Positions 19,201 through 61,594 of a DNA stretch of 64,000 nucleotides are shown here, piece after piece (positions within the stretch are counted from its first letter, which is position 1; each line of letters begins with the position of its first letter). Source of the stretch: a virus (taxonomy: Duplodnaviria; Caudoviricetes); the IMG/VR virus record IMGVR_UViG_3300012031_000005, positions 1-64,000 of that record, one strand, 5' to 3'. The position numbers and the translations under genes were made by a program. The notes beneath the pieces were generated by a model that was given only the letters and a program-made list of their open reading frames with translations, did not search any database and had not been told where the DNA came from.

Positions 19201-19612
19201 TGTCTAGCCACTGTAGGCATACTGTGATAGCTGTAATGGGCATAAACGGGTCGTCAATCGGAGCCCATCCACGCACTGGGTCGAAGTCAGTTTCGATGTC
19301 CCAAAACAATACGTTTAGCTTAGGGGAATCCTGATTGAGATAGTTTTCACTTAGGCATTGGAAAATTGGATTAATGTCGCTTTCAAACAGTGTCTTGTCT
19401 CTGTTAATAGCAACTTCTTTTCGGAAGTCTTTAGTATTCTTTGCAACAATTCTACTTAGACTATCGCCAAAGATACTCTGATGCTTTCCTTTTGGGTCTT
19501 TGTAATAAAACGTATACTTAACCGGATATTCTACAAAGGTTCGTTTTCCTTCGCGTCTTTCAACAACGCGAATAACGTCTTCTTTTCTATCAAATAATGC
19601 GTCAACGTACAT
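16250..19612 (-). CDS. DNA polymerase B, N-terminal part (exonuclease + palm) with a cis intein and a C-terminal IntN
   Basis: DIETD ExoI, YNRQD ExoIII, DLNSLYPS motif A, KISLNSLYG motif B, YGD|S; start MYVDA with AAGGAG RBS. Confidence 0.95.
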   Translation of the reverse strand: MYVDALFDRKEDVIRVVERREGKRTFVEYPVKYTFYYKDPKGKHQSIFGDSLSRIVAKNTKDFRKEVAINRDKTLFESDINPIFQCLSENYLNQDSPKLNVLFWDIETDFDPVRGWAPIDDPFMPITAITVCLQWLDSMLITLAVPPKGLPLEEARAMCQKRWGDEVILFPNDSKGKGEQDMLLTFLDLLEDADVHSGWNCIGINEQVYLDDRIKTLGNIKKGDTLSNASVVNTFDSGLKQKNVLVDDFGATIDISDEHVIPHYFKDKRKYKNLNTLKLNSVEGNISSIKERMKTQDVYLRQPIHRNTNNAMTYGKLFTENTLPIITTVEEIEDSLKFQQSHLSKEKCISKDEVISADMCRLLGMMFTDGTFDSYGGTYSFCNSNQVLAQAAVDIINNEGIGYVNLINRRKDGCFYVGFSRHNKFSVLRNMIYSESAKKELNVELLSMLSEDQFCAFISGCIDGDGSVATWHAEICNFENQSRKLNVLLKWNGFITTVNDNIVRIKYVAFCKEQLLKIKPLHSKKQKLPALFDKKNSANCKIRWFHDADSNEVIVKVKRIVETDEMIPMGDIETTSHYFVCNGTKVHNSEGYDVPYTVNRIQRVLSKDDTRKFCLWGELPKKREYEKFGKTSETYDFVGRVHLDSLNLYRKYTYEERHTYRLDAIGELEIGENKTVYEGTLDQLYNNDFETFVEYNRQDTALLDKLDKKLKFIDLSNELAHANTVMLKTVMGAVAITEQAIINEAHHRGLQVPNRKKHSTENTQAAGAYVAFPKKGLHLAIGSMDLNSLYPSVIRALNMGPETVVGQLRPDMTDRMVHEAMTLQKKTFAGAWEGHFGSLEYVAVMDKRKDVALTIDWEDGRHDVLSGAEIYKLIFESRMPWMISANGTIFTTEFEGVIPGLLKRWYAERKDLQGMLKKAITAGNKTEITFWDKRQLVKKISLNSLYGAILNPGCRFFDKRIGQSTTLTGRQIVKHMSAEVNKTITGVYDHVGEAVIYGDSVTGDTLITLNDKKISIEDLFNRFDYRVIQDQGKEYAIPRTEMEKENNAVLGYNAFEDEAVFGEIAYVMRHKTKKKLYEIETDDGKKVTVTEDHSLIVDRHGITTEVTPKNLEEDDLIITI
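16253..16615 (-). mobile_element. split intein N-fragment (121 aa, Ser1)
   Basis: YGD|SVTGDT block A, VTEDHS block B, then a stop codon. Confidence 0.9.
17849..19012 (-). mobile_element. cis intein with LAGLIDADG endonuclease in the ExoII region of polB (388 aa)
   Basis: SGWN|CIG ... KVHN|SEGYD; LLGMMFTDG and FISGCIDGDG. Confidence 0.92.
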
Positions 19613-19684
19613 CGTTGGGTATTCTCCTTGTTTATGGCCAATTGTGCCATGCTGCATGTTCGTAAGTGAACGACTCTTTAATAA

Positions 19685-40691: not shown

Positions 40692-42095
40692 CTATTTCTC
40701 TAGATTACGTGCAAGTCTGATCATAGTTGCTGCTAAATTTATCTCCGGATCAACGACCAATGCATGGTCTACTAACCCTTGTTTGATAATTAGCACTGCA
40801 CTGTCTTGCTGGTGCTCGCTGGCACCAAAAAGCTCAATGTTATTATAGAGCCAGCGGTACACTTCATCCATTTCCTCCGGCTGTGCTTGACTACAGACTA
40901 GCTTACGGGCTTCTGTAATCTTACCTGCCTTGAACAAATCTGTCATTGCCAAGTGGAAGTCAGCACTGGTGCTGGCAGTAGCTGCGGCCTCCAGCTCACC
41001 ACTTTGTGAGTTTAGCTGTACGGTATTAATACATTTACGCATGTCTGGATAGTATGCTTTTACATAACTATCTATAGTTTCAAGATCAAATGTTACATTC
41101 TCAGTAATAAGTATTTCGGCAACTCGAGCAGTAAACTCTGTTTGATCAATTTTTTCAAAGTGAAGGTGCTGACACCTGCTGTGAATGGCCGGCATAATCT
41201 TGTTGGGATAATTACAAGTTAGAATAAATCTAACATCTGCACTATATGATTCCATGAGGTTACGCAGGGCAGGCTGCACACTGTTGATGTTCATATAGTC
41301 TGCTTCGTCAATCAGCACAATTTTATAGTCACCAAATGCCATGGTCTGACAAAACATAATCAGCTTATCAACCCATTCGATCTTTCTGCCTTCTTTTGAA
41401 CCGTTAGCAATCAACACATCAGTATCTTGCACGTCCAACTGATTAATTAGTATTTTAGCTAGAGTAGTGTTATGATGTATAATGCCATTGGGTGTTACAT
41501 ACTGGTGTGGTGTGTCTAATGCCACATCATACACGTCTTGTTCGTCTCCTGATAACATTCCAACTATACTAGCCGGCCCGTTTATAGTATCTACTACGTC
41601 ACATTTACTAATCTTCTTAGGAATACCATTACTAAAGACCAAATGTTCTGTAGAACATTTAAGTTCTGTATTGTTATCAAATACATAAGTAGCAACAGTG
41701 TGTCTTTTCTTTACAAGCCCATTAACAGGTACATAGCCTGTGGGGCTATCAATTTTTATACAGTGCTTGCTAACAACAGGCACGTTATATTCAATCTCGT
41801 CCAGTTCTAGTATTTTGAAAAGTTCTTTGATCGGTATTTTATAATGCTTATCAATTGATTGGTATTTTAATAGCTGCTCTTTTTGTAAAGAAGTCAATGT
41901 AGCAGTGTCGATTTCTATACAAACTTCTTCGGTACCGGCTAGGCACTTACCAATTCCGGCCGACCCCGATAAAAGCAGGTGCGGAATACTGCCCTGTTTG
42001 ATCCATCCTTCTATCTGTTCTTTTTGCGAGTTGTCTTTAAAGACATAGCCGTTTAGATCATTTGGCCGATACTTTTCGGTCCATAATTGATTCAT
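40692..42095 (-). CDS. clamp loader AAA+ subunit (gp44/RFC-small-like) with intein
   Basis: WTEKYRP, GSAGIGK|..|TT, DEAD, SRC. Confidence 0.92.
   Translation of the reverse strand: MNQLWTEKYRPNDLNGYVFKDNSQKEQIEGWIKQGSIPHLLLSGSAGIGKCLAGTEEVCIEIDTATLTSLQKEQLLKYQSIDKHYKIPIKELFKILELDEIEYNVPVVSKHCIKIDSPTGYVPVNGLVKKRHTVATYVFDNNTELKCSTEHLVFSNGIPKKISKCDVVDTINGPASIVGMLSGDEQDVYDVALDTPHQYVTPNGIIHHNTTLAKILINQLDVQDTDVLIANGSKEGRKIEWVDKLIMFCQTMAFGDYKIVLIDEADYMNINSVQPALRNLMESYSADVRFILTCNYPNKIMPAIHSRCQHLHFEKIDQTEFTARVAEILITENVTFDLETIDSYVKAYYPDMRKCINTVQLNSQSGELEAAATASTSADFHLAMTDLFKAGKITEARKLVCSQAQPEEMDEVYRWLYNNIELFGASEHQQDSAVLIIKQGLVDHALVVDPEINLAATMIRLARNLEK
41469..41945 (-). mobile_element. mini-intein (159 aa) in the clamp-loader Walker A motif
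   Basis: GK|CLAG...STEH...VYD...IIHHN|T; no endonuclease. Confidence 0.9.
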
Positions 42096-43942: not shown

Positions 43943-44214
43943 AAATCTTGTCCTAGAAGTCTGGTCCAGACTTCTTGTATAATGCCTTGACTCAAAGCAT
44001 CAGGGTGACCGGAGCTACAGTCAACACCGTCCTGTAGCTCCGGTGTCCACTTAGCTTCCCATAAACTGAACTCATTGCGTATCTTGCGACCCAGCGTGTG
44101 ATGATACAGTATTAGGTCCGATTCTTTTGTTTCTAAAAACGCCATCTTAGACTGTTTTGCTTCGTTGTGGAACCAGTTAATAACTTCTTCAACTATTTCT
44201 TCACGTGGTTTCAT
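43939..44214 (-). CDS. hypothetical protein
   Basis: HHTLGRKIRNEF.LW, HPD.LS. Confidence 0.7.
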   Translation of the reverse strand: MKPREEIVEEVINWFHNEAKQSKMAFLETKESDLILYHHTLGRKIRNEFSLWEAKWTPELQDGVDCSSGHPDALSQGIIQEVWTRLLGQDL

Positions 44215-44750
44215 CGCTGTATGTTTAACTCCTTGTAGGCAATTTGAATACTTTTAGACTGGAAGTATGCATCTGATAGTGCATTGTGCAAATTATTCTG
44301 CCCCAACGTCTTTCTCGGATCCTGCTTACATGCTGAGAACAGTGTACGACTGTCACGGATCTGCCAAAAGTTCCAAGGAATCGGCTTTCCTACACAGCGA
44401 TATAAGTCTTCAAGAATAGTATAGTCAAAGCCGTAGCCTTGCCCCCAAAGCACACTGGTTCCTACGCACCACTTGGATAACTGTCGCAATGCGTCTTCTA
44501 CGCTGAGTCTGCCTACGGGATCAAACGCTTCTTCCATAACGGCAGGGTCTTGCCTGCCCCACCACTCAATTGTACTGTCACTTGCTGATCGTCCCAGCTG
44601 ATCCTGCTCGTCAATATCAATCTTAAAGTATAATTCTGAATGCGGTTCAGAATCTGATTTGGGGTCAAACTTAACTGCACCTATACTTAGGATAGTTGCG
44701 CCAGGTTTAACGTCAAGTGTTTCTAAATCTATGGTTCCATGAGTAGCCAT
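44211..44750 (-). CDS. DEDDh 3'-5' exonuclease (DexA/Rv2179c-like)
   Basis: IDLETL, FD, RDSRT, HNALSDA. Confidence 0.88.
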   Translation of the reverse strand: MATHGTIDLETLDVKPGATILSIGAVKFDPKSDSEPHSELYFKIDIDEQDQLGRSASDSTIEWWGRQDPAVMEEAFDPVGRLSVEDALRQLSKWCVGTSVLWGQGYGFDYTILEDLYRCVGKPIPWNFWQIRDSRTLFSACKQDPRKTLGQNNLHNALSDAYFQSKSIQIAYKELNIQR

Positions 44751-44920
44751 TAAGTTTTCCTGTTTTCCTGACCAATGCCAGATATGATTAAGAATATATA
44801 CAGGATGGGCCAACCCCATCCTGTAATGGAGCTAGTAAGGTGCAGGAACATCAAGACAATGCCTGCGAGCCCAGTAGTAGTAAGACTTTTGTTGTTTGTT
44901 GCTGTTTCTGGAAGTTTCAA
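44750..44920 (-). CDS. small membrane protein (56 aa)
   Basis: TTG start with AGGAG RBS; two hydrophobic segments. Confidence 0.55.
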   Translation of the reverse strand: MKLPETATNNKSLTTTGLAGIVLMFLHLTSSITGWGWPILYIFLIISGIGQENRKT

Positions 44921-44977: not shown

Positions 44978-45238
44978 TTATTTAATTAGTCGAATTTTGT
45001 ATATTGCACCTGTGGGTGCTGACATAGGTTGAACACTAGCTAGCTCACTCATAAAGTTTCGTGAACCTTCTAATATATATTCAGCGTAAGAAAAGCCAGC
45101 TAATACCTTGTAGGTCTCAAACAGTTCAAGCTTATCTTGCTTCCACAATGTAGCAAGAGCAGGCACATGCTCTATTAGGTATTCGTTCCAATCATCTTCA
45201 GAAAGTATATTATTACTTGGTAACGGTAAATTCAACAT
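44978..45238 (-). CDS. small protein with a gp23-like VQPM..PTG tail
   Basis: Paralog of the next ORF; ELASVQPMSAPTGAIY. Confidence 0.7.
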   Translation of the reverse strand: MLNLPLPSNNILSEDDWNEYLIEHVPALATLWKQDKLELFETYKVLAGFSYAEYILEGSRNFMSELASVQPMSAPTGAIYKIRLIK

Positions 45239-45470
45239 TTGTAAACTCTATTGGAATATAAGGGCAGTAGAAAAGACCGGCATTAGGATGATATTTGTTC
45301 TTTTCTATGTAATCTTTGTAGGTTAATCCCGCTAGGGCTTTGTAGGTCTCAAACTGTTCAAACTTGCCCTGACTCCATAATTTATCAAGAGCCGGCACAT
45401 TGTCTAACAGATACATATCCCAAGCAACGGCTGTGCGTATTTTATTTCCTGCATCAAGTAGTAAACTCAT
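45213..45470 (-). CDS. small protein with a gp23-like AGLFYCPYIP tail
   Basis: Paralog of the previous ORF. Confidence 0.7.
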   Translation of the reverse strand: MSLLLDAGNKIRTAVAWDMYLLDNVPALDKLWSQGKFEQFETYKALAGLTYKDYIEKNKYHPNAGLFYCPYIPIEFTNVEFTVTK

Positions 45471-45639
45471 AATACTAGTCCTGTGTGTTGAATATTTTTC
45501 TATTGTCTAAGATAAGTAGTTTCTTTTAATTCAGAGCATGCCATTAATATAATTGGTGTTTGACTGTATGTGTGTACGCTTCGCTTAACACAAGCTTTCG
45601 CTTGCGCTCAATCTAACTTCTCTTTGTGAATAATGTTTG

Positions 45640-46030
45640 GTTAATCAAATACCACTTGTACTGCATGACTGCTAGCAGGCAGGTTCAGTTGGTTCATCTA
45701 GATAGTAGAGCCATAACTCACCCATTTGGGTGAATTGAAGGTAACTCATTTTCATCTGAGTGAGCATGGACCATCTTAATAAAAGAGATTTACATTTCTG
45801 TATCAGAGGCGGTTGACCGGTACCCCTTACTCTAGCTTCACAATATCAACGGATGGTAGTTAATCCCTATTAAGCGAAATTACTTGCCTGTAGGTTGTAT
45901 CTTTATCACAGCGCCTACTTCATTTAAAGCCTTTAGTTAGCTTTTGCCTTCCAGTGCATCGATATCCGTCGACGATGTTACATCGCAAACTCTTGATGAG
46001 TCGAGCAGCCCCGACCAAACAGTACTGGTT
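45640..46030 (-). ncRNA. putative large structured ncRNA
   Basis: ORF-free; dense nested hairpins and long-range complementarity. Confidence 0.5.
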
Positions 46031-46072
46031 AATGTGCCTAAGTGTGACTAAGTGTGCCTAAGTGTGCCTGAG
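46031..46072. repeat. four 10-bp tandem repeats (AGTGTGCCTA)
   Basis: aatgtgccta agtgtgacta agtgtgccta agtgtgcctg. Confidence 0.9.
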
Positions 46073-46076
46073 TAAT

Positions 46077-46373
46077 CTATGTAAGATCAGCTGATTTTAC
46101 AAAGATTCCGTCTATCATTTTTCCTTTACGATCTTTAATATCGTCATAAGCAACTGCAAGACAATCGTCCATAGTATGACCATTGCGCACCATAATGTTA
46201 ATTAGTACAACCATCATATCACCAATGTCGTCCTTAATGTCTTTACCTTTGCAGATGTTAGAGGAAAGTTCTCCCATTTCCTCTACTAATTTACAAAATT
46301 GTGACTTGTCGTCAGATCCGTTAATCAAGTTTCGGTCGTGGTGCCATTGCGTAATTAATTCTTCGTAATTCAT
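46077..46373 (-). CDS. MazG-like NTP pyrophosphohydrolase
   Basis: KLVEEMGEL, DDIGD, IKDRKG. Confidence 0.88.
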   Translation of the reverse strand: MNYEELITQWHHDRNLINGSDDKSQFCKLVEEMGELSSNICKGKDIKDDIGDMMVVLINIMVRNGHTMDDCLAVAYDDIKDRKGKMIDGIFVKSADLT

Positions 46374-47239: not shown

Positions 47240-47761
47240 TTATCTCATGAACTCATGGAAGTCTAGGCCATATTGAATTGAGTGTATTTTGTGCACTCCG
47301 ATTAAATACAGTACAAAACTTGCTACACTAGATCCTCTGCCGACTCCCCAAACTATTTCATTCTCTCTCATAAAATCAACTAAAAATATCATATACCTAA
47401 GTATATTAATCATATTACGAGATTGATATTCTTCTAGTTCACTAGTTAGTCTGTTTATTTCGTTTTGATTCGAGCATAATCCAACAAGGTGATCGTAAAT
47501 ATCTATCTTTAGATACTCGTCAGGCATGAACCACTCAGACTGGCAGGCATTATCGAATTCTACCATTGTTGTAGTTGATGAGTTGTAGACTTGTAATCCT
47601 GAAGTATACCTTTCTTTTGCAACGGCATTAAACCGTTGTACGTCAGCTGTGTCTTCACACTGTACAAGGTGTACTTTATCTGCATGTCCGCTGTAGATCA
47701 TGTTTACGAGATCTAAAGTGGTGAAGATTGGTGTTCCTAACTTGTCTGTTTTTACAATCAT
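47240..47761 (-). CDS. stand-alone DnaE (Pol III alpha) fragment
   Basis: RL..EL, WGVGRGSSVAS.VLYLIG, LDFHEF; no catalytic PDID. Confidence 0.8.
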   Translation of the reverse strand: MIVKTDKLGTPIFTTLDLVNMIYSGHADKVHLVQCEDTADVQRFNAVAKERYTSGLQVYNSSTTTMVEFDNACQSEWFMPDEYLKIDIYDHLVGLCSNQNEINRLTSELEEYQSRNMINILRYMIFLVDFMRENEIVWGVGRGSSVASFVLYLIGVHKIHSIQYGLDFHEFMR

Positions 47762-53605: not shown

Positions 53606-53648
53606 ATGTGAACTACTGAGTGACTAAAGATCACTCAGTAGTTCACAT
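53606..53648. terminator. 18-bp perfect hairpin after the giant tail gene
   Basis: ATGTGAACTACTGAGTGA-ctaaaga-TCACTCAGTAGTTCACAT. Confidence 0.6.
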
Positions 53649-56600
53649 TATCTTCCTACTACTACTTCAACAATGCCGCGTTCGTTGGTATTTTTAGCAC
53701 CTACTGCCTTACCAATCATTGTGCCATTAACTGGGTTGTTGTTTACACAACCGTATCCAAATATTCCGCTTGTAACAATTATGTCTCCTTTGCTAACTTT
53801 GCCAACTACTTTACATGGAACTCGTCCTTGAAGTGCCAGAGCAACTACATTATCACCTGACAGTGCAGTGTTCATTAGATGCGCTGGATTAGTTGATACC
53901 ACTCCGGCAGCTCTAAAGTTGTCCTTTTGGTTAGTTGTAGTTACTTCGGCATCGCCACCAAATACTAGAACAGTGCCGGCTTCGTAAGCTGCATCAGCTT
54001 GATAATTTTCAGCTAGGTCAGCGTAGTATGCTGTGGTTGCAGTACCATTAAATATATTTGCGTAAACGTTATCATATTTTAATGCTGCGCTGCCAATGTC
54101 GTGGGAGTTGGTAACATCTGGTAAGAATCCTTTACCAGTGTATTCACCTGCAACAATACTGGCTCCATTTACAAACAAGTTTCCACTTGAATATATATTA
54201 CGATATCTTAGTGAATTACTACCAATATCATAAGTGTTAGTAACATCAGGAAGTACACCTGCTGAGCTAAAAGTAAACGGAATTACACTAGTGTTTGAAC
54301 TAGTATTTGCTGTTACTATTGCAACTCTGCCTGCTGAGGATAATCCTGACGCTGCGCCTATAGATATTCCTGTTGAAGCTGCACCTTTTTCACTTTGTGC
54401 TTCTATAAAGCTGGAGTAGATCCAATTGACTCCGATGGCCTTCTTGCTTGCAAGTGTAGAGTTGGCTTTTAATACAGACTGTGCAGTATTGGAGTCTCCA
54501 ATATTTACTCCACCTGCTATCTGTACAGTAGGTGCTACACTTGGTGAGCCCCCTACTGATCGAAGTATTTCACCCTGCGTTGGAGTTTTGAACAGAACAG
54601 TGGTCGTATCAAGGCTTAATATTTCATAAGATGGGTTACCCCCTAATATTAAGGAGTTGACTTGAATACTACCAATGGCATTTGTTTTGAGTATTGAATT
54701 TGTTTCGCCAGAGTTGGTAACATTTGAAATACTGTATGCACCTGTACCAGTTCTTATCAGTGCTTGTCCTGGATCACTTGCTACTGCAAGTACGGAACCT
54801 GTGAAGTCTTTATCCTCTAGACCAAGTCCCTGCGCTACAACATTAGAAAAAGATATCTGGTCTATATTACTAGCACCGTCATCACCACTCCAATTACCTA
54901 ATACTGAGCCATTAGATATGCGCTGTAGTTTGTTAATGCTTAGTGCACCGTTGTTTATTGTAATCCAGCCAGTAGTTGAATTAAACACTGCTGAGTCAAA
55001 TGATGCAGATCCTAGATCACTTTGTGATATGCCTGTTGAATTTGCCCTTGTGGATGCAGATGCAAGTGCTAGTTTACTTTGTGCTATGCCAGCATTTGCA
55101 TTAACATCAGCATTAACAATAACTCCTGCTTTAATCTGCAGGTTAATTTCTTCTCGACTGGTTGTTATACTGATATCGCTGCTAGCAGATGCCAAGACGT
55201 TAGCCCATTCGTCTACAGGACCATCTATTACAATTCCTTGCGCGCCTGCTGGCAACACTTCAGCTCTGTCTTGCCCAGGCGAGTTACCAGCAGGAGTTCC
55301 ATCACTAAATTCTCCTGATAGCGGTGTGTAAACCAATATAACAATGTCGCCGTCTACTGATCCTGTCTCTTCAATGACCTCGACTATTTCACCTGTAGCT
55401 CCAGTTACTGATCCGGTTATAACATCTCCGGGAACATACGGCCCTGCTACAACACTGCCGGCAGGTAATATAAGGCGTTTAGCACCAGTGGAAGACAATA
55501 CTTGTCCTGATTGGTAACTGTTATAGCTGACTGATCGCAGGTCTTGAATCTCGTCGCCGCCGCTGGCAGTGTTATCAACATAGCGTTTGGTTGCTGCATC
55601 TGCTGCATTACTGGGTATACCCAAGTTAGAAATTGTGTTGTTGGCTGCATTCAAATCACCTGTCAGCGGAATTGAACCGTTAGGCGCCAGCGCACCGGGT
55701 CCTAATCTGTTCGAGACCGGATTGCCTGCTGCATCGTAACCTAATCGTCGGTTTACATATCCTCTAACAGCAAGTTCTGTAGGCACAGTATCCGAAGCAT
55801 TGTCAGTCATTGCAGTGTCTGTTGAAAACTCTGTTACTACAACACCACGTTTAAAACCTAGCCCGTCTACATCACTTAGTGCTATGGAAGCACTAAAAGT
55901 CACAGTACCTGTACCTTGGTCTACGCTAAAGAATCTGCCTACTCTAAATACGCCGTTCTGATCAGTGCTTACATAGAAAACTCGACCCTTGCCTCGTTCC
56001 TCTACTTCGTTTGCACTATTTTTATCTTCAGGCTCTCCAAATAACACGTTTGGATAATTGGTAGAGTTGTAACCTCCTGTGCCAATGTCAAGGAAGTCGT
56101 GGCCGGTGACTCTGCAAGTAGAAATGTTAACAGTAATATCGCCAATGCTTCCAGCTTTTAGACCAGCACGTATTACAACAATACTATTTCCTAAAATTGT
56201 TGTGCCTGCAAGTCCCTCGGCACTAAGAGGATAGTTTATATCTATTCCCACATCTTCAATGTCTACGATTGCATAATCGTTATCTTCTGCTGGCGCTACT
56301 TCGGTTTCGACACCTTGAATAGTCTTCACACCACGGAAGTTGTAAACATAATGCTGCTTGCCAGCCCATGTTATAATGGAAGGAAGTGGAGTTAATGAAT
56401 CCGCAGTCCAGCCGACTGGACGGTTGCCTTCAGGCGTAAACAAGTTATTATTTAATCGAAAAATTTCATTAAAATCTGAAGCTGCCAATAATGCAATTCT
56501 GGTATCACCGACTGTGCCGCCTTTAGTAGTACCGTCACCTGAAAGACTAGACTCTCCTGCTCGCTGAGAGTCTACCAACAGCCTTATGTAGTCATAACTT

Positions 56601-59600
56601 GTATCAAATCCAGTTTGTAGTTGATCTTGTTCTAATTCATTGCCCAACGAATCAGATGTGAGGAAACTAACTGATCTGTACACAAATTCAGGATTTTCAT
56701 TAAAAATGATAGCAGTAGATGGTCTAATTGTTAGAAGTTCTGCCCTTGCAACGTCACCTAAAATGTGTGTTGAGTTACGACGATACTGAATAATAGTATC
56801 AAATGCAACTTCCTCTAGCAAACCACTCTCACTAAACTGAGAATCTCCTGTTGAGAAGTTCAGCTTATAAACAGTGTTACTAACTGTTGGAGTTGTTGGC
56901 TCGATGTATATCGTACCTGTTACTAAAATACCGGTTATTATGCCGTTGCCTTCGGTATTGTTTATAGCAGTAATTGCAATAGTACAATCGTGCGTGCCGT
57001 TTTGCCCACCAAGTAACGAACCTGTAATATTGAAGGAGTCGTCTACTCTATAGTCATTGCCGCCATTTTCTATAGTTGCGGTATACCCCCCGTTAATAGT
57101 TTTTCTAATAGTGAAAATTGCGCCGGTTGCAGTACCTGTTGCTGCTGCGCCGGTGTTGTAGTTATATGAAATATCAGTACCTACGTTGAGATACGCTCCT
57201 ACATATTCTCCCGTTTTTTCTGCATTTGCAACTTCATATCTTGCAAAAACGTTACGTGCTGGATGATATAGGTCTATTTCGGATCTATTAGATGGTACAT
57301 CCTTCATGTCGTATACGTAAATGGACAAGCTTTCGACGTCGTTGCCGTATCCTATAGCATTTACGTTTATTGGAACACTATTTGACCCTAGTGCACTTGC
57401 TGTGCCCTGTGGGTCAAGTGTTAGTTGATCAACTGTATTAAATATACCTGTAGAATTTTTTAAGTAAACAGTGGTTGACCCAGTACCTCCGTTGCTAGTC
57501 TGTGACGTGCTGGCACTTACTGTTGCAATAGCATCTGAGTTTGCCTGCTGTACAACATCTCCAACTGTAAGTTGTATTGGATTTGTTACGGTTAACACCA
57601 CATCAGCAGTAAATGATTTAGCAGGCTGAACCATATCCTGTATCAGATCAACTACGTCAGGAATTTCGTTAGGATCAGCTCCTTCTGCAATTAATCCATA
57701 TTCTCCGTAGCAAGACGAACCACTTATTGAACGTATTTGGCCGCCATTGGCAGCATAATAAGACACCCAGCAATAGTAAGTAAACATACTCACCATTTCT
57801 GATAATGCACCGTTCAATACCACTAGTCCGTAGCCAAGATCGTTAATCTGCGTAAAGTCGTTTCCTAGTATGGAACGGTTGCCAGCTGTTTGCAAAGTAA
57901 TAGGTATTTGTGTTTCGGAATCTCCGATAGCATCCAGATCAACACCAGTAAGCAATTGACTAGTTAATCCTGCAAAACCTTGACCGTTGTTTGAACTACG
58001 ATCTAGAATAAGCTCAGCTGAGCCTAAATCCGGATCGTAGTTAGTAACTGCGTTTACTTGAAAACGCCTTCCGTCAATGTAGAATGCACATGGAGTTTGA
58101 GGACGCCTTACAAATAACCCTTGCGGATCGTCTTGACTTCCAAAACTTTGTATCTTAAGCCTAAACGCTGATCCGTCAACCCTATCAGATACTTGAACTG
58201 CGGTGTTACCTACGAACGCGTCAACAAACATTCCGCCTCGGAACGACTGTTTATTAAGGCTTTTTGAAAAGCTTGAACCGGTTTGAATATATGGTGATTT
58301 AGTTAGAACTTGCCCTTCTGGGTCTAGTGCTAGCATGAATCCACCGTGACCTTGCACTGTTACATTACGAATGATAGTGGCATTGTCCATGAGGAACACG
58401 TCCATTTCGTTGTTACGAAGAGGTGGACTATACTCAGGTTCGAATGCAAATGCAATCGTGTTGATTAGATTACTAATTACTAGCTCAGGTCCATCAATTT
58501 CCCTCCAAAAATTATTTTCTTCAGTTTGATTGAACTCATCTCCGGAAAGATGTTCGATAGTTGTAGTGTAAAACCGAGTTGTTCCTGATACTGTATTAGA
58601 TACAACAGTTCTTGCTCTATATCTAATGCCGCTACTCCACATATCTGGAATAGTATCGCCGTTAAATGTGTCTATTGCATACTGATTATCTAGGCCGTAT
58701 ATGGTATCTGGCCCCTGACCTCTAATTATCTTGTTAGCTATAGTTGCAATATACTGTATTCCTTCAACAGTTCCGTTTGGAGATTGCCCAACATAGTACT
58801 CTCCCTGCGCTTCTAGTGAGAACTCGTTGCTGCCCAGCCGCACATCCTTAATCAATGCATCGACAATTTTACCAACGCCATTAAAGTATGCAACTTTGTC
58901 AGCGGTGTTATTAAAGATAGAAAACTGATCGTCTAGGTATTCAGCTACTTGTTCCTGTATAAATTCTTTGTTGTCAACTAACGCCAGTGCTGAAGTGTTC
59001 CACGATCCTACGTTTGTGTAACCAGCCCCAATTTGTTTCTGTTGATTTGGTTTTTCTAGGTAGTGATAGCCAAAGTAACCGTCTACTTCACCAGTTAGTG
59101 AATTTACATACTCGACCCCGTTTGGGATTCTAGATACCGACAGAATAACCGGAGCAGCCCCACTACCGCCTAATGCACTGTCTGGTATTGTGATTAATTC
59201 GTTTTTAACAAAGTCTACGCCAGGGTTTAGTATAGTAACGCCAATTACTGTGCCGGATGTATTAACGTCTACTTCAAACACAGCGTCTTTACCTAGATTG
59301 TTTGAAGTCCAATCGGAGTTATCGATTCGCCAGACTCCGCCAGCCCTGTTAGAATCATCCGGGTTCGTGACACTAACTGATTCAATTATACTGCGACCAA
59401 GTACCAGGCCGTCAAACTGTGCATCTCTATAGAAATATAAGTTAGCCCAGCGTGATTGTGAAACTCGTTTCTTAGGGCGAATTATTACTCGTCTAAACTC
59501 GTCACCTTTAATAGACACGTTAGCAGATACCCTGATTGGATAATCTTCTTCGTAGATACCAGTTTCTACCCTTATTGAAACTTGTGTTTCGCGTACAATG

Positions 59601-61594
59601 TTTCCAAATTCTAAAGTTTCACTGTCTTGAAATTCTATAGGTTCCAGTAGTTGCACTTCAACTTCATCTGTTTCTGCTAGGCTAACTGCTCTGTCACCCG
59701 ACTCGTTTTTATAGTCAACAATGCGACCAACTGCGCCTGAGGACTTACCTCGTATTACCTTGCCGGGGATTATATCTGCATTTAACGGGTTGGCTTGGTC
59801 AATAAATCCATAATTGCCGTTAGAGATGTTAATTTTGTAATTAGTTAATCCGTCTACAATTGTAGGAGCGTTTAAAACGCCTTGGTTAATCACGTCGAGC
59901 AATACGTTAAACTTAGCATCGATGGTTTCGTCAGCTGCACTATCTGGTATGATAGTATTATCAATTACTTGATCAACTCTGTCTTGATACTGCACAGGTG
60001 GCGCAGTATTAGTTAATATATAATTTACTACAAGATTCCTAGCATAGTTTATTCCTGCTAGGGTATACAGTCTTTGTGAACCAATTGCAGCACTTGCACT
60101 AGCGTTTGAAAAGTATCTAATTCCAGCCCAACGAGATAAGTAGTTGGCATTGTTGCCCAGCAGCGCATCAAGTGAAACTGAATCTAGAATATATTCTACG
60201 TCTCTTTCGCACGTAGATGTATTATATCTTCCTGCAAATTCAGGATATGTTGCGTCTATGTATGCAGTTACTTCTTTACTAACAAACTCTTTATTCAGCG
60301 TAATCAGCTGTCTTGCGTTTATTCTGTTAACTATTGTAGGAGTTATACCTTGCGAAACTACTATTCCATCTGTAGCTCCTGAGTTATAAGTAACTGTTTG
60401 TACGTATGGTCCAGGTTCAAATGGCGCTGCTTGTATAATTTCTTCTGCTTTTTCTGCTGCGGCGTTAACAGTTTTGTATGCGTATGCTGGGCTGCGTCCT
60501 TGTTTGCCATCTGGAGTATTTTTTTGTGAGTCATCACCTACTGTGGTTACATACAAGTTTACAGTGCTTGCAGCAGATGCATTGTCCACATATAACTTAG
60601 TAGCTGCTTGAAGATCATCAAGGCCGTTTGGAAGGCCGGTCCCTGCTAGATCACCAGGATGGTCTGAAAGGTTTAAAATACCTTCCATAGTGTCGCCTTG
60701 TCTTCGTACAATTGACTTGCGTGGTAATGCTATGTTGTCCAGCCAATTTCCTTCGAGGGCAAGATCTAGAGCAGCATCTGTAATAGTAAATACGCCGGTG
60801 CCACCAGCCAACAATATTCTGCCGGAACCGTCTAGTGCAGCTTGTTGTGATCCATAGAGAGAAATTGTATCCTTATTCTTAATTCTAATGTATACATCAC
60901 CGCCAGACGTAACGTTGTTAGGATCTGTTTCAGTTGAATTAAACACAAATCCGGCACCGTTAAACGCATCTGAAAGTCCGTGATCAACAATTACTAAACT
61001 TCCTTGATCTAGCCCAGATGCAGTAAGAGTATATTGTGATATAGTGTCTGGTTCGTCAGGTAGTCTTACGCCACCTCCAGGCACTGTTTTAGTCTGGTAA
61101 TTTCTGTCTGCAAAGGATTTATTAATAACCAGATCACCAACTGTATAGTCAGTATTATAAACCGAGTTAAATGTATCAATTGCTGCTTGAGATACAGTAA
61201 CGCCTGCAATAGGTTGTGTTGCGGCATTTAGTGGTCCACTTAGACTTGGCTCTGGATCATTTGAAACTCTTGAGACCAGCTGCCTAACTATAACCTTGCC
61301 GTCAACACTAAAGTCGAATCCAATGGTATTAACAGCTTCGCCGTCGTACCCGTCTGACACAAGTTCGAGAAAACTAAGTCCAGAACCATCAGGGCGCACC
61401 GCAGGGATCTTATTTTCGTTATCGAGATAGCTGTCGGGTGTATCGCTTAGATCAGTGAACGATATCTGGCCACCAATTCCAAACACTGCGTACAGTTCTT
61501 GAAAGTTTTCGTTTACCTTGCGAAACGATTCACGAATACTGTCGCCTGTTCCGTCGTTGCCTTCTACACCAATGTCAACGCCTTGTCTTGCCAT
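53648..61594 (-). CDS. giant (2648 aa) baseplate/tail fibre protein
   Basis: NDGTGDS.R..F.K.N.NF start, AATKxYVD repeats, C-terminal ADLAE...GRVPCK domain. Confidence 0.85.
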   Translation of the reverse strand: MARQGVDIGVEGNDGTGDSIRESFRKVNENFQELYAVFGIGGQISFTDLSDTPDSYLDNENKIPAVRPDGSGLSFLELVSDGYDGEAVNTIGFDFSVDGKVIVRQLVSRVSNDPEPSLSGPLNAATQPIAGVTVSQAAIDTFNSVYNTDYTVGDLVINKSFADRNYQTKTVPGGGVRLPDEPDTISQYTLTASGLDQGSLVIVDHGLSDAFNGAGFVFNSTETDPNNVTSGGDVYIRIKNKDTISLYGSQQAALDGSGRILLAGGTGVFTITDAALDLALEGNWLDNIALPRKSIVRRQGDTMEGILNLSDHPGDLAGTGLPNGLDDLQAATKLYVDNASAASTVNLYVTTVGDDSQKNTPDGKQGRSPAYAYKTVNAAAEKAEEIIQAAPFEPGPYVQTVTYNSGATDGIVVSQGITPTIVNRINARQLITLNKEFVSKEVTAYIDATYPEFAGRYNTSTCERDVEYILDSVSLDALLGNNANYLSRWAGIRYFSNASASAAIGSQRLYTLAGINYARNLVVNYILTNTAPPVQYQDRVDQVIDNTIIPDSAADETIDAKFNVLLDVINQGVLNAPTIVDGLTNYKINISNGNYGFIDQANPLNADIIPGKVIRGKSSGAVGRIVDYKNESGDRAVSLAETDEVEVQLLEPIEFQDSETLEFGNIVRETQVSIRVETGIYEEDYPIRVSANVSIKGDEFRRVIIRPKKRVSQSRWANLYFYRDAQFDGLVLGRSIIESVSVTNPDDSNRAGGVWRIDNSDWTSNNLGKDAVFEVDVNTSGTVIGVTILNPGVDFVKNELITIPDSALGGSGAAPVILSVSRIPNGVEYVNSLTGEVDGYFGYHYLEKPNQQKQIGAGYTNVGSWNTSALALVDNKEFIQEQVAEYLDDQFSIFNNTADKVAYFNGVGKIVDALIKDVRLGSNEFSLEAQGEYYVGQSPNGTVEGIQYIATIANKIIRGQGPDTIYGLDNQYAIDTFNGDTIPDMWSSGIRYRARTVVSNTVSGTTRFYTTTIEHLSGDEFNQTEENNFWREIDGPELVISNLINTIAFAFEPEYSPPLRNNEMDVFLMDNATIIRNVTVQGHGGFMLALDPEGQVLTKSPYIQTGSSFSKSLNKQSFRGGMFVDAFVGNTAVQVSDRVDGSAFRLKIQSFGSQDDPQGLFVRRPQTPCAFYIDGRRFQVNAVTNYDPDLGSAELILDRSSNNGQGFAGLTSQLLTGVDLDAIGDSETQIPITLQTAGNRSILGNDFTQINDLGYGLVVLNGALSEMVSMFTYYCWVSYYAANGGQIRSISGSSCYGEYGLIAEGADPNEIPDVVDLIQDMVQPAKSFTADVVLTVTNPIQLTVGDVVQQANSDAIATVSASTSQTSNGGTGSTTVYLKNSTGIFNTVDQLTLDPQGTASALGSNSVPINVNAIGYGNDVESLSIYVYDMKDVPSNRSEIDLYHPARNVFARYEVANAEKTGEYVGAYLNVGTDISYNYNTGAAATGTATGAIFTIRKTINGGYTATIENGGNDYRVDDSFNITGSLLGGQNGTHDCTIAITAINNTEGNGIITGILVTGTIYIEPTTPTVSNTVYKLNFSTGDSQFSESGLLEEVAFDTIIQYRRNSTHILGDVARAELLTIRPSTAIIFNENPEFVYRSVSFLTSDSLGNELEQDQLQTGFDTSYDYIRLLVDSQRAGESSLSGDGTTKGGTVGDTRIALLAASDFNEIFRLNNNLFTPEGNRPVGWTADSLTPLPSIITWAGKQHYVYNFRGVKTIQGVETEVAPAEDNDYAIVDIEDVGIDINYPLSAEGLAGTTILGNSIVVIRAGLKAGSIGDITVNISTCRVTGHDFLDIGTGGYNSTNYPNVLFGEPEDKNSANEVEERGKGRVFYVSTDQNGVFRVGRFFSVDQGTGTVTFSASIALSDVDGLGFKRGVVVTEFSTDTAMTDNASDTVPTELAVRGYVNRRLGYDAAGNPVSNRLGPGALAPNGSIPLTGDLNAANNTISNLGIPSNAADAATKRYVDNTASGGDEIQDLRSVSYNSYQSGQVLSSTGAKRLILPAGSVVAGPYVPGDVITGSVTGATGEIVEVIEETGSVDGDIVILVYTPLSGEFSDGTPAGNSPGQDRAEVLPAGAQGIVIDGPVDEWANVLASASSDISITTSREEINLQIKAGVIVNADVNANAGIAQSKLALASASTRANSTGISQSDLGSASFDSAVFNSTTGWITINNGALSINKLQRISNGSVLGNWSGDDGASNIDQISFSNVVAQGLGLEDKDFTGSVLAVASDPGQALIRTGTGAYSISNVTNSGETNSILKTNAIGSIQVNSLILGGNPSYEILSLDTTTVLFKTPTQGEILRSVGGSPSVAPTVQIAGGVNIGDSNTAQSVLKANSTLASKKAIGVNWIYSSFIEAQSEKGAASTGISIGAASGLSSAGRVAIVTANTSSNTSVIPFTFSSAGVLPDVTNTYDIGSNSLRYRNIYSSGNLFVNGASIVAGEYTGKGFLPDVTNSHDIGSAALKYDNVYANIFNGTATTAYYADLAENYQADAAYEAGTVLVFGGDAEVTTTNQKDNFRAAGVVSTNPAHLMNTALSGDNVVALALQGRVPCKVVGKVSKGDIIVTSGIFGYGCVNNNPVNGTMIGKAVGAKNTNERGIVEVVVGR

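What the first reader, a model, noticed from the sequence alone, without database searches (positions are those of the whole stretch)
45640..46030. ~400-nt ORF-free, densely structured region: candidate large ncRNA
Seen: the largest non-coding gap in the window. Minus-strand stems include GUCGG/UCGAC, CGAUG/CAUCG, AAAGC/GCUUU, GUAGG/CCUAC, GGCAAGUAAUU/UUAACUACC and AAUUCACCC/GGGUGAGUU. The loop CUUAAUA is complementary to a distal UAUUAAG (pseudoknot), and CU(C)AGAUGAA is repeated. Several pairs are G-U on the minus strand. It is not recognisable as tRNA, tmRNA, RNase P or a group I/II intron. Inference: an undescribed large phage RNA or ribozyme.
Basis: partly seen in the sequence, partly recalled or inferred. 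Interest (0 to 1): 0.72.

Follow-up and report, generated by a model that had tools for sequence, protein, structure and literature searches.

The report
New large structured jumbo-phage RNA
The gap holds a real gene for a folded RNA of about 350-470 bases that makes no protein, is shared by well over a hundred large lake-phage genome fragments, matches no catalogued RNA family, and carries the same short lineage-specific "word" twice, which suggests it binds two copies of one unknown partner.

Summary
The finding holds up. The 606-nt ORF-poor gap (45471-46076) contains, on the minus strand, a conserved RNA element: core 46034->45684, with 3' hairpins reaching about 45572.

- **Spread:** an exact 19-mer from its core occurs in at least 119 IMG/VR stretches, and all 119 are true relatives. 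One complete 346.9-kb phage genome holds a single copy.
- **Structure:** on 95 sequences, a model of 95 pairs in 22 helices, with one pseudoknot, is 93.7% paired. Slid controls give 37-43%. 67 pairs change on both sides, and 0 of 500 shuffles reach this.
five of its six stems, its pseudoknot and its repeated motif are confirmed. Folding energy alone is not above chance (z -0.9 and -0.5).
- **Not a known family:** no Rfam 15 family, tRNA, tmRNA or coding signal fits.
- **Context:** the gene stands alone. Neighbours vary, downstream genes are mostly convergent, and about half the relatives end in a terminator. In 74 of 106 loci it directly follows a small SegE-type GIY-YIG endonuclease gene.
- **Oddest feature:** two direct repeats about 55 nt apart carry an identical 7-mer in 78 of 79 sequences, although six different 7-mers occur.

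Function is unknown. I infer a trans-acting scaffold with two equivalent binding sites.

The parts
46033..46072 (-). Tandem 10-nt repeat (AGGCACACUU on the RNA strand), about 4 copies, directly 5' of the RNA. The copy number differs among the three close relatives. The same word, AGGCA(A/U)C, begins the element in most relatives.
45684..46034 (-). Conserved core of the RNA family, as matched by the family profile.
   Evidence: nhmmer E 1.2e-56, the only copy in the window. It is 27-30 of 30 identical to L003 per 30 columns, against 19-24 of 30 in the MazG 3' coding end.
45951..46028 (-). 5' domain. P1 (46028-46024 with 45955-45951) encloses hairpin P2 (46015-46000) and P3/P3a (45999-45956).
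   Evidence: (helices 1-6)
45926..45944 (-). Hairpin P4 (AAAGC/GCUUU) with a conserved 9-nt loop.
   Evidence: 5 of 5 pairs change on both sides (helix 7); coordinates
45890..45918 (-). Hairpin P5 (GUAGG/CCUAC, with inner UGU/ACA) and a conserved A-rich loop ending in GAUAC.
   Evidence: (helices 8-10)
45858..45884 (-). Hairpin P6. Its loop (45874-45868, CUUAAUA) is the 5' strand of the pseudoknot.
   Evidence: (helices 11-13)
45836..45852 (-). Nearly invariant joining strand (CCGUUGAU..GUGAAG). Its partner is not resolved, because it never varies.
45781..45835 (-). Three-way junction. P8 encloses P9, which holds the 19-mer 45826-45808 that is identical in every relative found (those relatives were fetched by matching this 19-mer exactly), and the GAAA-capped hairpin P10.
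   Evidence: (helices 14-18)
45775..45781 (-). 3' strand of the pseudoknot (UAUUAAG).
   Evidence: (helix 13)
45737..45774 (-). Hairpin H1. S1 (AUGGU, 45774-45770) plus a variable stem presents word copy R1 (ACUCAGAUGAA, 45761-45751) in its loop.
   Evidence: Cognate stems are more stable than non-cognate ones, 0 of 2000 permutations; coordinates
45715..45736 (-). Hairpin P12 (AAUUCACCC/GGGUGAGUU).
   Evidence: (helix 19: 5 of 9 pairs change on both sides)
45693..45714 (-). S2 (AUGGC, 45714-45710) followed by word copy R2 (AUCUAGAUGAA, 45703-45693).
45572..45609 (-). Two 3' hairpins that align with the family's GAAA-capped hairpin and terminator hairpin. The window copy has no U-run after them.
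   Evidence: (helices 20-22)

Best explanation
**Shown.**
- Window 46034->about 45572 (minus strand) is a free-standing gene for a large structured non-coding RNA.
- It belongs to a family that is widespread in large and jumbo lake phages, present once per genome where whole records could be checked, and absent from Rfam 15.
- The fold has a 5' domain (P1-P6), an H-type pseudoknot from the P6 loop to the strand after a three-way junction, an invariant junction core, and a 3' domain.
- The 3' domain holds two direct repeats, 49-64 nt apart. Each is a short constant lead-in (CUC or UCU) followed by the same lineage-specific 6-8-nt word.

**Inferred.**
- The RNA acts in trans as a folded scaffold.
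- It offers two equivalent recognition sites to two copies of one sequence-specific partner. The most likely partner is a dimeric or duplicated protein; less likely is a nucleic acid encoded outside the locus.
- The partner's specificity drifts between phage lineages, so both words must change together.
- The small GIY-YIG or PDDEXK endonuclease gene that usually precedes the RNA is most simply a homing endonuclease parked beside a very conserved target.
For: **Family and spread**
- 123 of the 128 loci searched match the family profile at E < 1e-10. These are all 119 viral loci, plus L003, L004, L206 and L207.

**Structure**
- 93.7% of cells are paired, against 82.0% for shuffles and 37-43% for slid controls.
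- 67 of 95 pairs change on both sides, and the covariation score is 0.323 against 0.130, with 0 of 500 shuffles as high.
- The pseudoknot has 6 of 8 pairs changing on both sides.

**Not coding**
- The median longest stop-free run is 66 aa. Only 1 of 95 sequences reaches 100 aa. Column variability shows no lag-3 periodicity.

**Free-standing gene**
- The upstream ORF is on the same strand in 100 of 105 loci, and the downstream ORF is on the opposite strand in 95 of 106.
- Neighbours vary.
- 47 of 95 sequences end in a terminator-like hairpin.

**Copy number**
- G000, G001 (complete, 346,856 bp) and G002 each hold one copy.

**Twin words**
- Column pairs in parallel register: 282/337 give AA 54, GG 39, AG 2; 286/341 give AA 50, GG 43, CC 1, GA 1.
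- The last 7 nt of R1 and R2 are identical in 78 of 79 parsed sequences, across six different words.
- All four combinations at two sites 4 nt apart occur. Linkage alone therefore cannot explain a perfect association over about 55 nt.
- Divergent members change or shorten both copies alike (L114, L126, L130, L132, L135).
- No complementary partner was found in the RNA, in the loci or in the complete genome G001.
- R1 sits in a hairpin loop whose stem covaries.
Against: - **No expression data.** None of the 15 listed runs is RNA, so ends, abundance and trans action are all inferred.
- **No partner identified.**
- **The second site is poorly defined.** Support for a hairpin presenting R2 is weak: 41 of 2000 permutations, with duplex energies near zero. 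The two sites may therefore not be structurally equivalent.
- **Sampling bias.** All relatives were fetched through one exact 19-mer. The sample is biased towards one clade and the sequences are related by descent, so shuffle statistics overstate independence.
- **Nuclease link.** The SegE-type gene is the only one of its family in G001 and in G002, and lies exactly upstream of the RNA. That may point to a functional link rather than mere parking.
- **Window copy.** It lacks a terminator and is followed by co-directional genes, so here it may be part of a longer transcript.
Confidence: 0.5

Rival explanations
1. It is a ribozyme, either self-processing or trans-acting. The invariant junction and the joining strand form the active site, and the twin words are substrate or processing-site recognition elements.
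For: - A 19-mer that never varies, plus a nearly invariant 17-nt single strand, sit inside a pseudoknotted multi-helix core. However, the relatives were fetched by matching this 19-mer exactly, so its invariance among them is by construction.
- The size and complexity match known large ribozymes. That comparison is from recall.
- Two identical words would fit two cleavage or ligation sites read by a single guide.
Against: - No Rfam ribozyme or intron model matches at E up to 10.
- No internal guide complementary to the words was found.
- No exon context exists.
- No chemistry was tested.
Confidence: 0.18
2. It is an RNA-only homo-oligomer in the manner of ROOL and GOLLD. Copies join through the self-complementary R2 word (AUCUAGAU, or AUCUGGAU with G-U pairs) and R1-R2 contacts.
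For: - R2 is an 8-nt palindrome in the common variants, and stays self-complementary in the G variant.
- The RNA is large, phage-borne and free-standing.
- ROOL and GOLLD form multimers, according to the abstract of 10.1101/2024.12.08.627333 (seen in search listings).
Against: - R1 is not self-complementary, yet it must still equal R2.
- The words of L114 and L132 are not palindromes.
- Kissing would favour the mixed A/G state, which is rare (2 of 95).
- The RNA is not next to tRNA genes (0 in 44 loci).
Confidence: 0.12
3. The RNA works together with the nuclease gene in front of it, either as a specificity or guide subunit or as an inhibitor (antitoxin-like). The nuclease is a 142-aa GIY-YIG in most loci and a PDDEXK in the window's subgroup.
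For: - 74 of 106 upstream ORFs are the SegE-type protein, ending 0-20 nt before the RNA.
- At 142 aa it is little more than the Pfam catalytic domain: 1-123 of 123 profile positions are matched.
- It is the only member of that family in G001 and in G002.
- A second nuclease fold (PDDEXK_15) holds the same position in L103, L136, L162 and L149.
- The twin words vary by lineage, as guides do.
Against: - About 30% of loci have an unrelated upstream gene (SGNH-like and others; MazG in the window).
- G000 has no SegE hit in 92.6 kb, though it is only 26% complete.
- Word type does not track nuclease type.
- No target complementary to the words was found in the loci or in G001.
- Free-standing homing endonuclease genes beside conserved genes are common in T4-like phages. 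This is established knowledge, recalled.
Confidence: 0.1
4. The stretch between the twin words is a template. The identical words at both ends let a polymerase re-align and copy it repeatedly, with the same logic as telomerase or DRT2.
For: - Exact identity of arbitrary words at both ends of a 49-64-nt unit, including concerted shortening, is what re-alignment would require.
- Phage ncRNA arrays that template cDNA have been reported (10.64898/2026.09.22.753630, passages seen).
Against: - No RVT_1 reverse transcriptase is found in G000, G001 (complete) or G002.
- Concatemers of the unit have an endless reading frame in only 11 of 67 cases.
- The unit contains a conserved structured hairpin (P12).
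Confidence: 0.04
5. It is a cis element, not a trans RNA. Candidates are a 3' UTR or terminator module of the upstream gene, a leader of the downstream gene, or a DNA-level site such as a homing target or a protein-binding repeat.
For: - It lies at the end of a transcription unit with a terminator.
- In the window it precedes co-directional genes, and the last 90 nt before the next start codon are also conserved.
Against: - Upstream and downstream genes differ between loci while the RNA stays the same.
- Ninety-five covarying base pairs and a pseudoknot far exceed what a terminator or a DNA site needs.
- The G-U pairs are strand-specific.
Confidence: 0.05

Closest known systems
GOLLD, ROOL and OLE: large ornate bacterial and phage ncRNAs
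   Same: Large, multi-helix, pseudoknotted RNAs of unknown biochemical role. They occur as free-standing genes, often in phages or prophages, and were found by comparative analysis of metagenomes.
   Different: No match to any Rfam 15 model. This RNA is shorter, at about 350-470 nt; the sizes of the others are recalled. It is not beside tRNA genes. It has twin co-varying words that, to my recollection, are not described for the others.
Phage group I introns carrying GIY-YIG homing endonuclease genes (for example T4 td with I-TevI; recalled)
   Same: A pseudoknotted RNA of a few hundred nt sits next to a GIY-YIG endonuclease gene in a T4-like or jumbo phage setting.
   Different: There are no exons: the downstream ORF is on the other strand in 95 of 106 loci. 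Neighbours vary. Most copies have their own terminator. The Rfam group I model gives no hit at E up to 10. The endonuclease ORF lies before the RNA, not inside it.
CsrB/RsmZ-type protein-sponge RNAs (recalled)
   Same: They repeat one short motif, shown in hairpin loops, to bind a dimeric protein.
   Different: Here there are only two copies, attached to a large conserved folded domain. The motif is not GGA-centred and varies by lineage.
Guide or partner RNAs encoded beside nucleases or recombinases (omegaRNA of IscB/TnpB, IS110 bridge RNA, type III antitoxin ToxI; recalled)
   Same: A structured RNA of a few hundred nt is encoded directly next to a nuclease gene and carries short lineage-specific words.
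   Different: The nucleases here are GIY-YIG or PDDEXK, not RuvC or DEDD types. No IS ends are present. The RNA persists without the nuclease in about 30% of loci. No complementary target was found. The repeats are not in tandem.

Membership tests
Any Rfam 15 family (including GOLLD, ROOL, HEARO, OLE, RNase P, tmRNA, group I and II introns, riboswitches) | Match to the family covariance model at its gathering score | tested here: not met
   There are 0 matches in the whole window and 0 in 10 relatives covering 109 kb. At E up to 10 only chance hits appear: SCARNA7, snoR20 and mir-183.
Group I intron | Interrupts a host gene, with exons on both sides on the same strand | tested here: not met
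   The downstream ORF is on the opposite strand in 95 of 106 loci. In the window the upstream MazG-like ORF is complete: it matches profile positions 8-119 of 123.
Group I intron | P3-P7 pseudoknot core with a guanosine-binding site | tested here: inconclusive
   A pseudoknot exists, but it is a hairpin-loop-to-downstream type. No mapping to P3/P7 was attempted beyond the negative Rfam scan.
tRNA / tmRNA | Cloverleaf or tRNA-like domain detectable by ARAGORN | tested here: not met
   0 genes in the window and 0 in 44 relatives' loci.
Riboswitch or cis-regulatory leader | Sits in the 5' UTR of a recurring gene class, with an expression platform | tested here: not met
   Downstream genes are mostly convergent and vary between loci.
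Protein-coding gene (missed ORF) | A conserved open frame and 3-nt periodicity of substitutions | tested here: not met
   The median longest stop-free run is 66 aa. Only 1 of 95 sequences reaches 100 aa. There is no lag-3 peak.
Retron or DRT-type template RNA | A reverse transcriptase gene in the same element or genome | tested here: not met
   No RVT_1 match in G000, G001 (complete) or G002, and the control genomes did give matches. Other RT families were not searched.
CRISPR-like array | Identical repeats separated by variable spacers | tested here: not met
   There are only two repeats. The 'spacer' holds the conserved hairpin P12, and the repeats contain variable inner segments.
IscB/TnpB omegaRNA or IS110 bridge RNA | Encoded at the edge of the cognate nuclease or recombinase gene | not tested
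   The neighbours examined are GIY-YIG, PDDEXK, MazG, SGNH-like and DUF6614 proteins. No genome-wide search for TnpB, IscB or IS110 families was run.

The most novel reading that the evidence does not exclude
The RNA is the programmable half of a two-part system with the small nuclease gene in front of it. That nuclease appears to lack a DNA-binding domain; it is a GIY-YIG in most lineages and a PDDEXK in the window's subgroup. The twin lineage-specific words act as guides, or as paired docking sites, that set where the nuclease acts. This would be a kind of RNA-directed nuclease not described so far.
Probability: 0.08. Interest if true: 0.95.

Novelty: new variant of a known kind. Interest (0 to 1): 0.8.

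Why it matters
Very few large, intricately folded non-coding RNAs are known, and each one characterised so far has shown new RNA biology (ribozymes, RNA cages). That statement is from recall.

This family has several useful properties:
- It has at least 119 natural variants.
- Its secondary structure is well determined and includes a pseudoknot.
- Its core is invariant across the relatives found here (which were selected by that core).
- It occurs in uncultured jumbo phages of lakes.

Its twin, concertedly evolving words are a clear handle. They predict a specific partner, and the prediction can be tested by mutating one copy or by pull-down.

The family also gives genome annotators a model for a 600-nt 'empty' gap that recurs in jumbo-phage assemblies.

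Tried and rejected
- **Thermodynamics.** MFE z-scores on both strands and at two lengths are not significant. They are no use as evidence here.
- **Cultured phages.** blastn in 'distant' mode against 50,697 phage records found nothing, for both the window gap and the L085 copy. PA5oct and SCTP-2, the nearest by polymerase, lack the 19-mer at up to 3 mismatches.
- **Bacterial genomes.** The 19-mer hit 7 stretches. Five are chance matches. Two (L206, L207) are true copies on two contigs of one Haliscomenobacter MAG. This is only a lead to the host.
- **Expression.** No RNA holder is listed among the 15 runs.
- **MazG as a linked gene.** Of the 80 MazG loci kept, only the window's three close relatives carry the RNA.
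- **Long-range helices.** RNAalifold proposed GGCA with UG-A-CC, GUUGAU with GUCAAC, and AGGC with GCCU. I did not adopt them, because the columns never vary or the pairs are contradicted in L084 and L085.
- **R1 pairing with R2 as an antiparallel helix or kissing pair.** Rejected as the cause of the concerted change. The most stable mixed state is rare (2 of 95).
- **V1-V3 and V2-V3 pairing.** No cognate advantage (907 and 518 of 2000 permutations).
- **Motif enrichment.** TCTAGATGA with up to 1 mismatch occurs 24 times in the window against 15.2 expected, with no positional pattern.
- **Micro-ORF reading of the AUGA/UGAUG motifs.** Rejected: the variable segments have indels that are not multiples of 3, and L130 and L135 lose the stop codons.
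- **Neo-like endless ORF.** Found in only 11 of 67 concatemers.
- **Literature.** Three searches and passages of four papers name no such RNA. The supplements of PMC10690425 could not be opened.
- **Closed or stopped steps.** Their exact frequency beyond the adjacent ORF therefore stays open.

Full report
**Setting**

All genes around the finding lie on the minus strand. A MazG-like ORF (46077-46373, PHROG E 2.5e-41) and an 85-aa ORF (45213-45470) bracket a 606-nt stretch with no ORF of 80 aa or more. This is the longest such gap in the window.

The window is part of a 92.6-kb IMG/VR record that CheckV rates 26% complete. Its family B DNA polymerase is closest, at 48% identity, to PA5oct-like Pseudomonas jumbo phages, followed by the 440-kb Salicola phage SCTP-2. 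It is therefore a fragment of a jumbo phage.

**First checks**

- Rfam 15 finds nothing at gathering score in the window. At E up to 10 it gives only a chance snoRNA hit.
- ARAGORN finds no tRNA or tmRNA.
- Folding energy is no better than for shuffled sequence on either strand. For the 606 nt, z is -0.92 on the minus strand and +0.72 on the plus strand. For the 271-nt core, z is -0.52 and +0.27.

**Relatives**

Two contigs that share the flanking genes (L003/L083 and L004/L082) carry the gap at 87% identity. In the three-way alignment the stretch 46031->45770 is 27-30 of 30 identical per 30 columns. The 3' end of the MazG coding sequence scores only 19-24 of 30. The hairpin CGAUG/CAUCG has become CGAUA/UAUCG.

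About 0.4 hits would be expected by chance; that figure is my own rough estimate. With a family profile, 123 of the 128 loci searched match at E < 1e-10: all 119 viral loci, L003, L004, L206 and L207.

The same 19-mer found 7 stretches in 185,579 prokaryote genomes. Five are chance matches. Two are full-length copies on two contigs of one Haliscomenobacter MAG.

The window holds one copy, at 46034->45684 (E 1.2e-56). G001, a complete 346,856-bp genome with terminal repeats, and G002 each hold one copy as well. PA5oct and SCTP-2 hold none at up to 3 mismatches. No cultured phage in INPHARED matches by blastn.

**Structure**

I aligned 95 sequences as alignment A2:
- the window;
- 92 of the 105 full-length loci, kept after a redundancy filter;
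- the two most divergent members, L114 and L132.

I derived a model from RNAalifold plus inspection. It has 95 pairs in 22 helices.

| Measure | Model | Shuffles | Partner slid by 1-3 columns |
|---|---|---|---|
| Cells forming standard pairs | 93.7% | 82.0% | 37-43% |
| Pairs changing on both sides | 67 | 43.4 (0 of 500 reach 67) | 28-37 |
| Covariation score | 0.323 | 0.130 | 0.037-0.077 |

Clear examples of changes on both sides:
- P1: GC 73, CG 15.
- P4: all 5 pairs change.
- P5: UA 49, GC 33, CG 7.
- P8: UA 49, AU 44.
- P9: GC 68, AU 27.
- P10: AU 46, GC 16, UA 14.

The pseudoknot, from the P6 loop to the strand after the three-way junction, has 6 of 8 pairs changing on both sides.

These sequences are related by descent and were fetched through one exact word, so the shuffle counts are not probabilities. 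The slid controls and the number of distinct pair types still make the structure secure.

Many near-invariant G-U pairs fix the strand as minus in the window.

The window's own subgroup (5 sequences) folds into the same P1-P6, P10 and P12. MAFFT misplaces the window row by a base or so in several helices of A2. I therefore took the window coordinates from motif positions.

**What it is not**

- *Not coding.* The longest stop-free run over the first 400 nt has a median of 66 aa and reaches 100 aa in 1 of 95 sequences. Column variability shows no 3-nt period.
- *Not an intron in a protein gene, and not a leader.* The upstream ORF is co-directional in 100 of 105 loci. The downstream ORF is convergent in 95 of 106. 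The neighbours differ between loci.
- *Not next to tRNA genes.* There are 0 in 44 loci.
- *Not accompanied by a reverse transcriptase.* No RVT_1 hit appears in G000, G001 or G002.

About half of the aligned copies (47 of 95) end in a stem followed by a U-run. The window's copy does not. Its downstream genes are co-directional.

**Neighbouring nuclease**

In 74 of 106 loci the ORF that ends 0-20 nt before the RNA is a 142-aa protein. It matches Pfam SegE_GIY-YIG over the whole 123-position domain (E 2.2e-32). That family has exactly one hit in G001 and one in G002, each just upstream of the RNA. It has none in the 92.6 kb of G000.

In the window's subgroup (L103, L136, L162) and in L149, the same position holds a PDDEXK_15 endonuclease. 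In other loci it holds SGNH-like or other ORFs, and in the window it holds MazG.

The simplest reading is a free-standing homing endonuclease gene parked beside a very conserved target. A functional pairing is not excluded.

**The twin words**

After the pseudoknot the layout is: S1 (AUGAC) - V1 - R1 - V2 - hairpin P12 - S2 (AUGAC) - V3 - R2. R1 is CUC followed by a word, and R2 is UCU followed by the same word.

Mutual information picks out column pairs that covary with the same letter and in parallel register:
- 282/337: AA 54, GG 39, AG 2.
- 286/341: AA 50, GG 43, CC 1, GA 1.

In the 79 of 95 sequences that a pattern could parse, the last 7 nt of R1 and R2 are identical in 78. Six words occur: AGAUGAU 24, GGAUAAU 19, AGAUAAU 18, GGAUGAU 10, AGAUGAA 6 and AGAUCAA 1. 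The window carries AGAUGAA.

All four combinations of the two variable sites, which are 4 nt apart, exist. Yet each site is almost perfectly tied to its twin about 55 nt away. Linkage therefore cannot be the cause.

The most divergent members carry quite different words, again twice: ACGAAAU in L114, AUGAAG in L132, ACAUGAAG in L126 and AGACGAA in L135. S1 and S2 also change together (CGAC twice, UGUC twice, UGGU/UGGC).

S1 plus V1 pairs with V2. Cognate duplexes average -5.73 kcal/mol against -4.30 for non-cognate ones (0 of 2000 permutations), so R1 sits in a hairpin loop. A matching hairpin for R2 is only weakly supported (41 of 2000).

No complement of the words was found in three places:
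- the RNA itself;
- the roughly 10-kb loci;
- the complete genome G001, for R1's 10-mer.

An antiparallel R1-R2 helix or kiss does not explain the pattern, because the most stable mixed state is the rare one. Concatemers of the unit rarely give an open frame (11 of 67), and the period varies from 49 to 64 nt.

**Interpretation**

Shown:
- a new, widespread, single-copy, free-standing structured RNA gene of large lake phages;
- a defined fold with one pseudoknot;
- two concertedly evolving words.

Inferred (about 0.5): it acts in trans as a scaffold with two equivalent sites for two copies of one sequence-specific partner, whose specificity differs between lineages.

The rivals are a ribozyme, an RNA-only oligomer, a partner of the adjacent nuclease, a repeat-addition template and a cis element.

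No expression data could be had: all 15 listed runs are DNA, from lake and salt-lake metagenomes.

**Novelty**

Nothing in Rfam 15 matches. Three literature searches, and the passages read in four papers, name no such RNA:
- PMC10690425;
- two 2026 preprints;
- PMC12619734, on aquatic jumbo phages with predicted Bacteroidota hosts.

The element may be listed unnamed among the 10,006 candidates of PMC10690425, whose supplements I could not open.

Noticed in passing
window 46033-46072: A 10-nt tandem repeat (AGGCACACUU on the RNA strand) lies right after the MazG stop codon. The copy number differs among the window, L003 and L004. The same word, AGGCA(A/U)C, starts the RNA in most relatives and is sometimes doubled (L095, L167). 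It may be a promoter or a protein-binding word.
   Followed up: partly
window 45213-45470 and 44978-45238: Two adjacent small ORFs (85 and 86 aa) are paralogues, 52% identical over 48 aa. They have no family match and occur only in the window's two close relatives.
   Followed up: partly
window 47240-47761: A stand-alone 173-aa ORF matches only positions 20-94 of 260 of the DNA polymerase III alpha NTPase domain. It is either a fragment or a split gene.
   Followed up: no
window 16250-19657 and 40692-42095: The family B DNA polymerase ORF ends inside an intein N-terminal splicing domain (residues 1024-1134). The clamp-loader-like ORF carries an intein C-terminal piece at residues 183-209. These may be split or degraded inteins.
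   Followed up: no
window 53648-61594: A 2648-aa ORF has no Pfam match at E up to 0.001.
   Followed up: no
window 44211-44819: An Rv2179c-like 3'-5' exoribonuclease (Pfam E 7e-36) lies three genes downstream of the RNA.
   Followed up: no
L206 and L207 (two contigs of one Haliscomenobacter MAG): Each contig (148 kb and 183 kb) carries a full-length copy of the RNA. They are probably phage contigs binned with a Bacteroidota host, which is a lead to the host.
   Followed up: partly
L116, L179, L120 (P10 region) and L132 (between P5 and P6): Insertions of about 20-60 nt sit at hairpin tips or between helices while the rest of the fold is kept. The window itself has about 85 extra nt between R2 and the 3' hairpins (45692-45610).
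   Followed up: no
Family consensus, loops of P3a and P5, and after R2: The pentamer GAUAC recurs in three loop contexts: UGAGAUAC, GAAAAAGAUAC and GAUGAUAC. I have no explanation for this.
   Followed up: no
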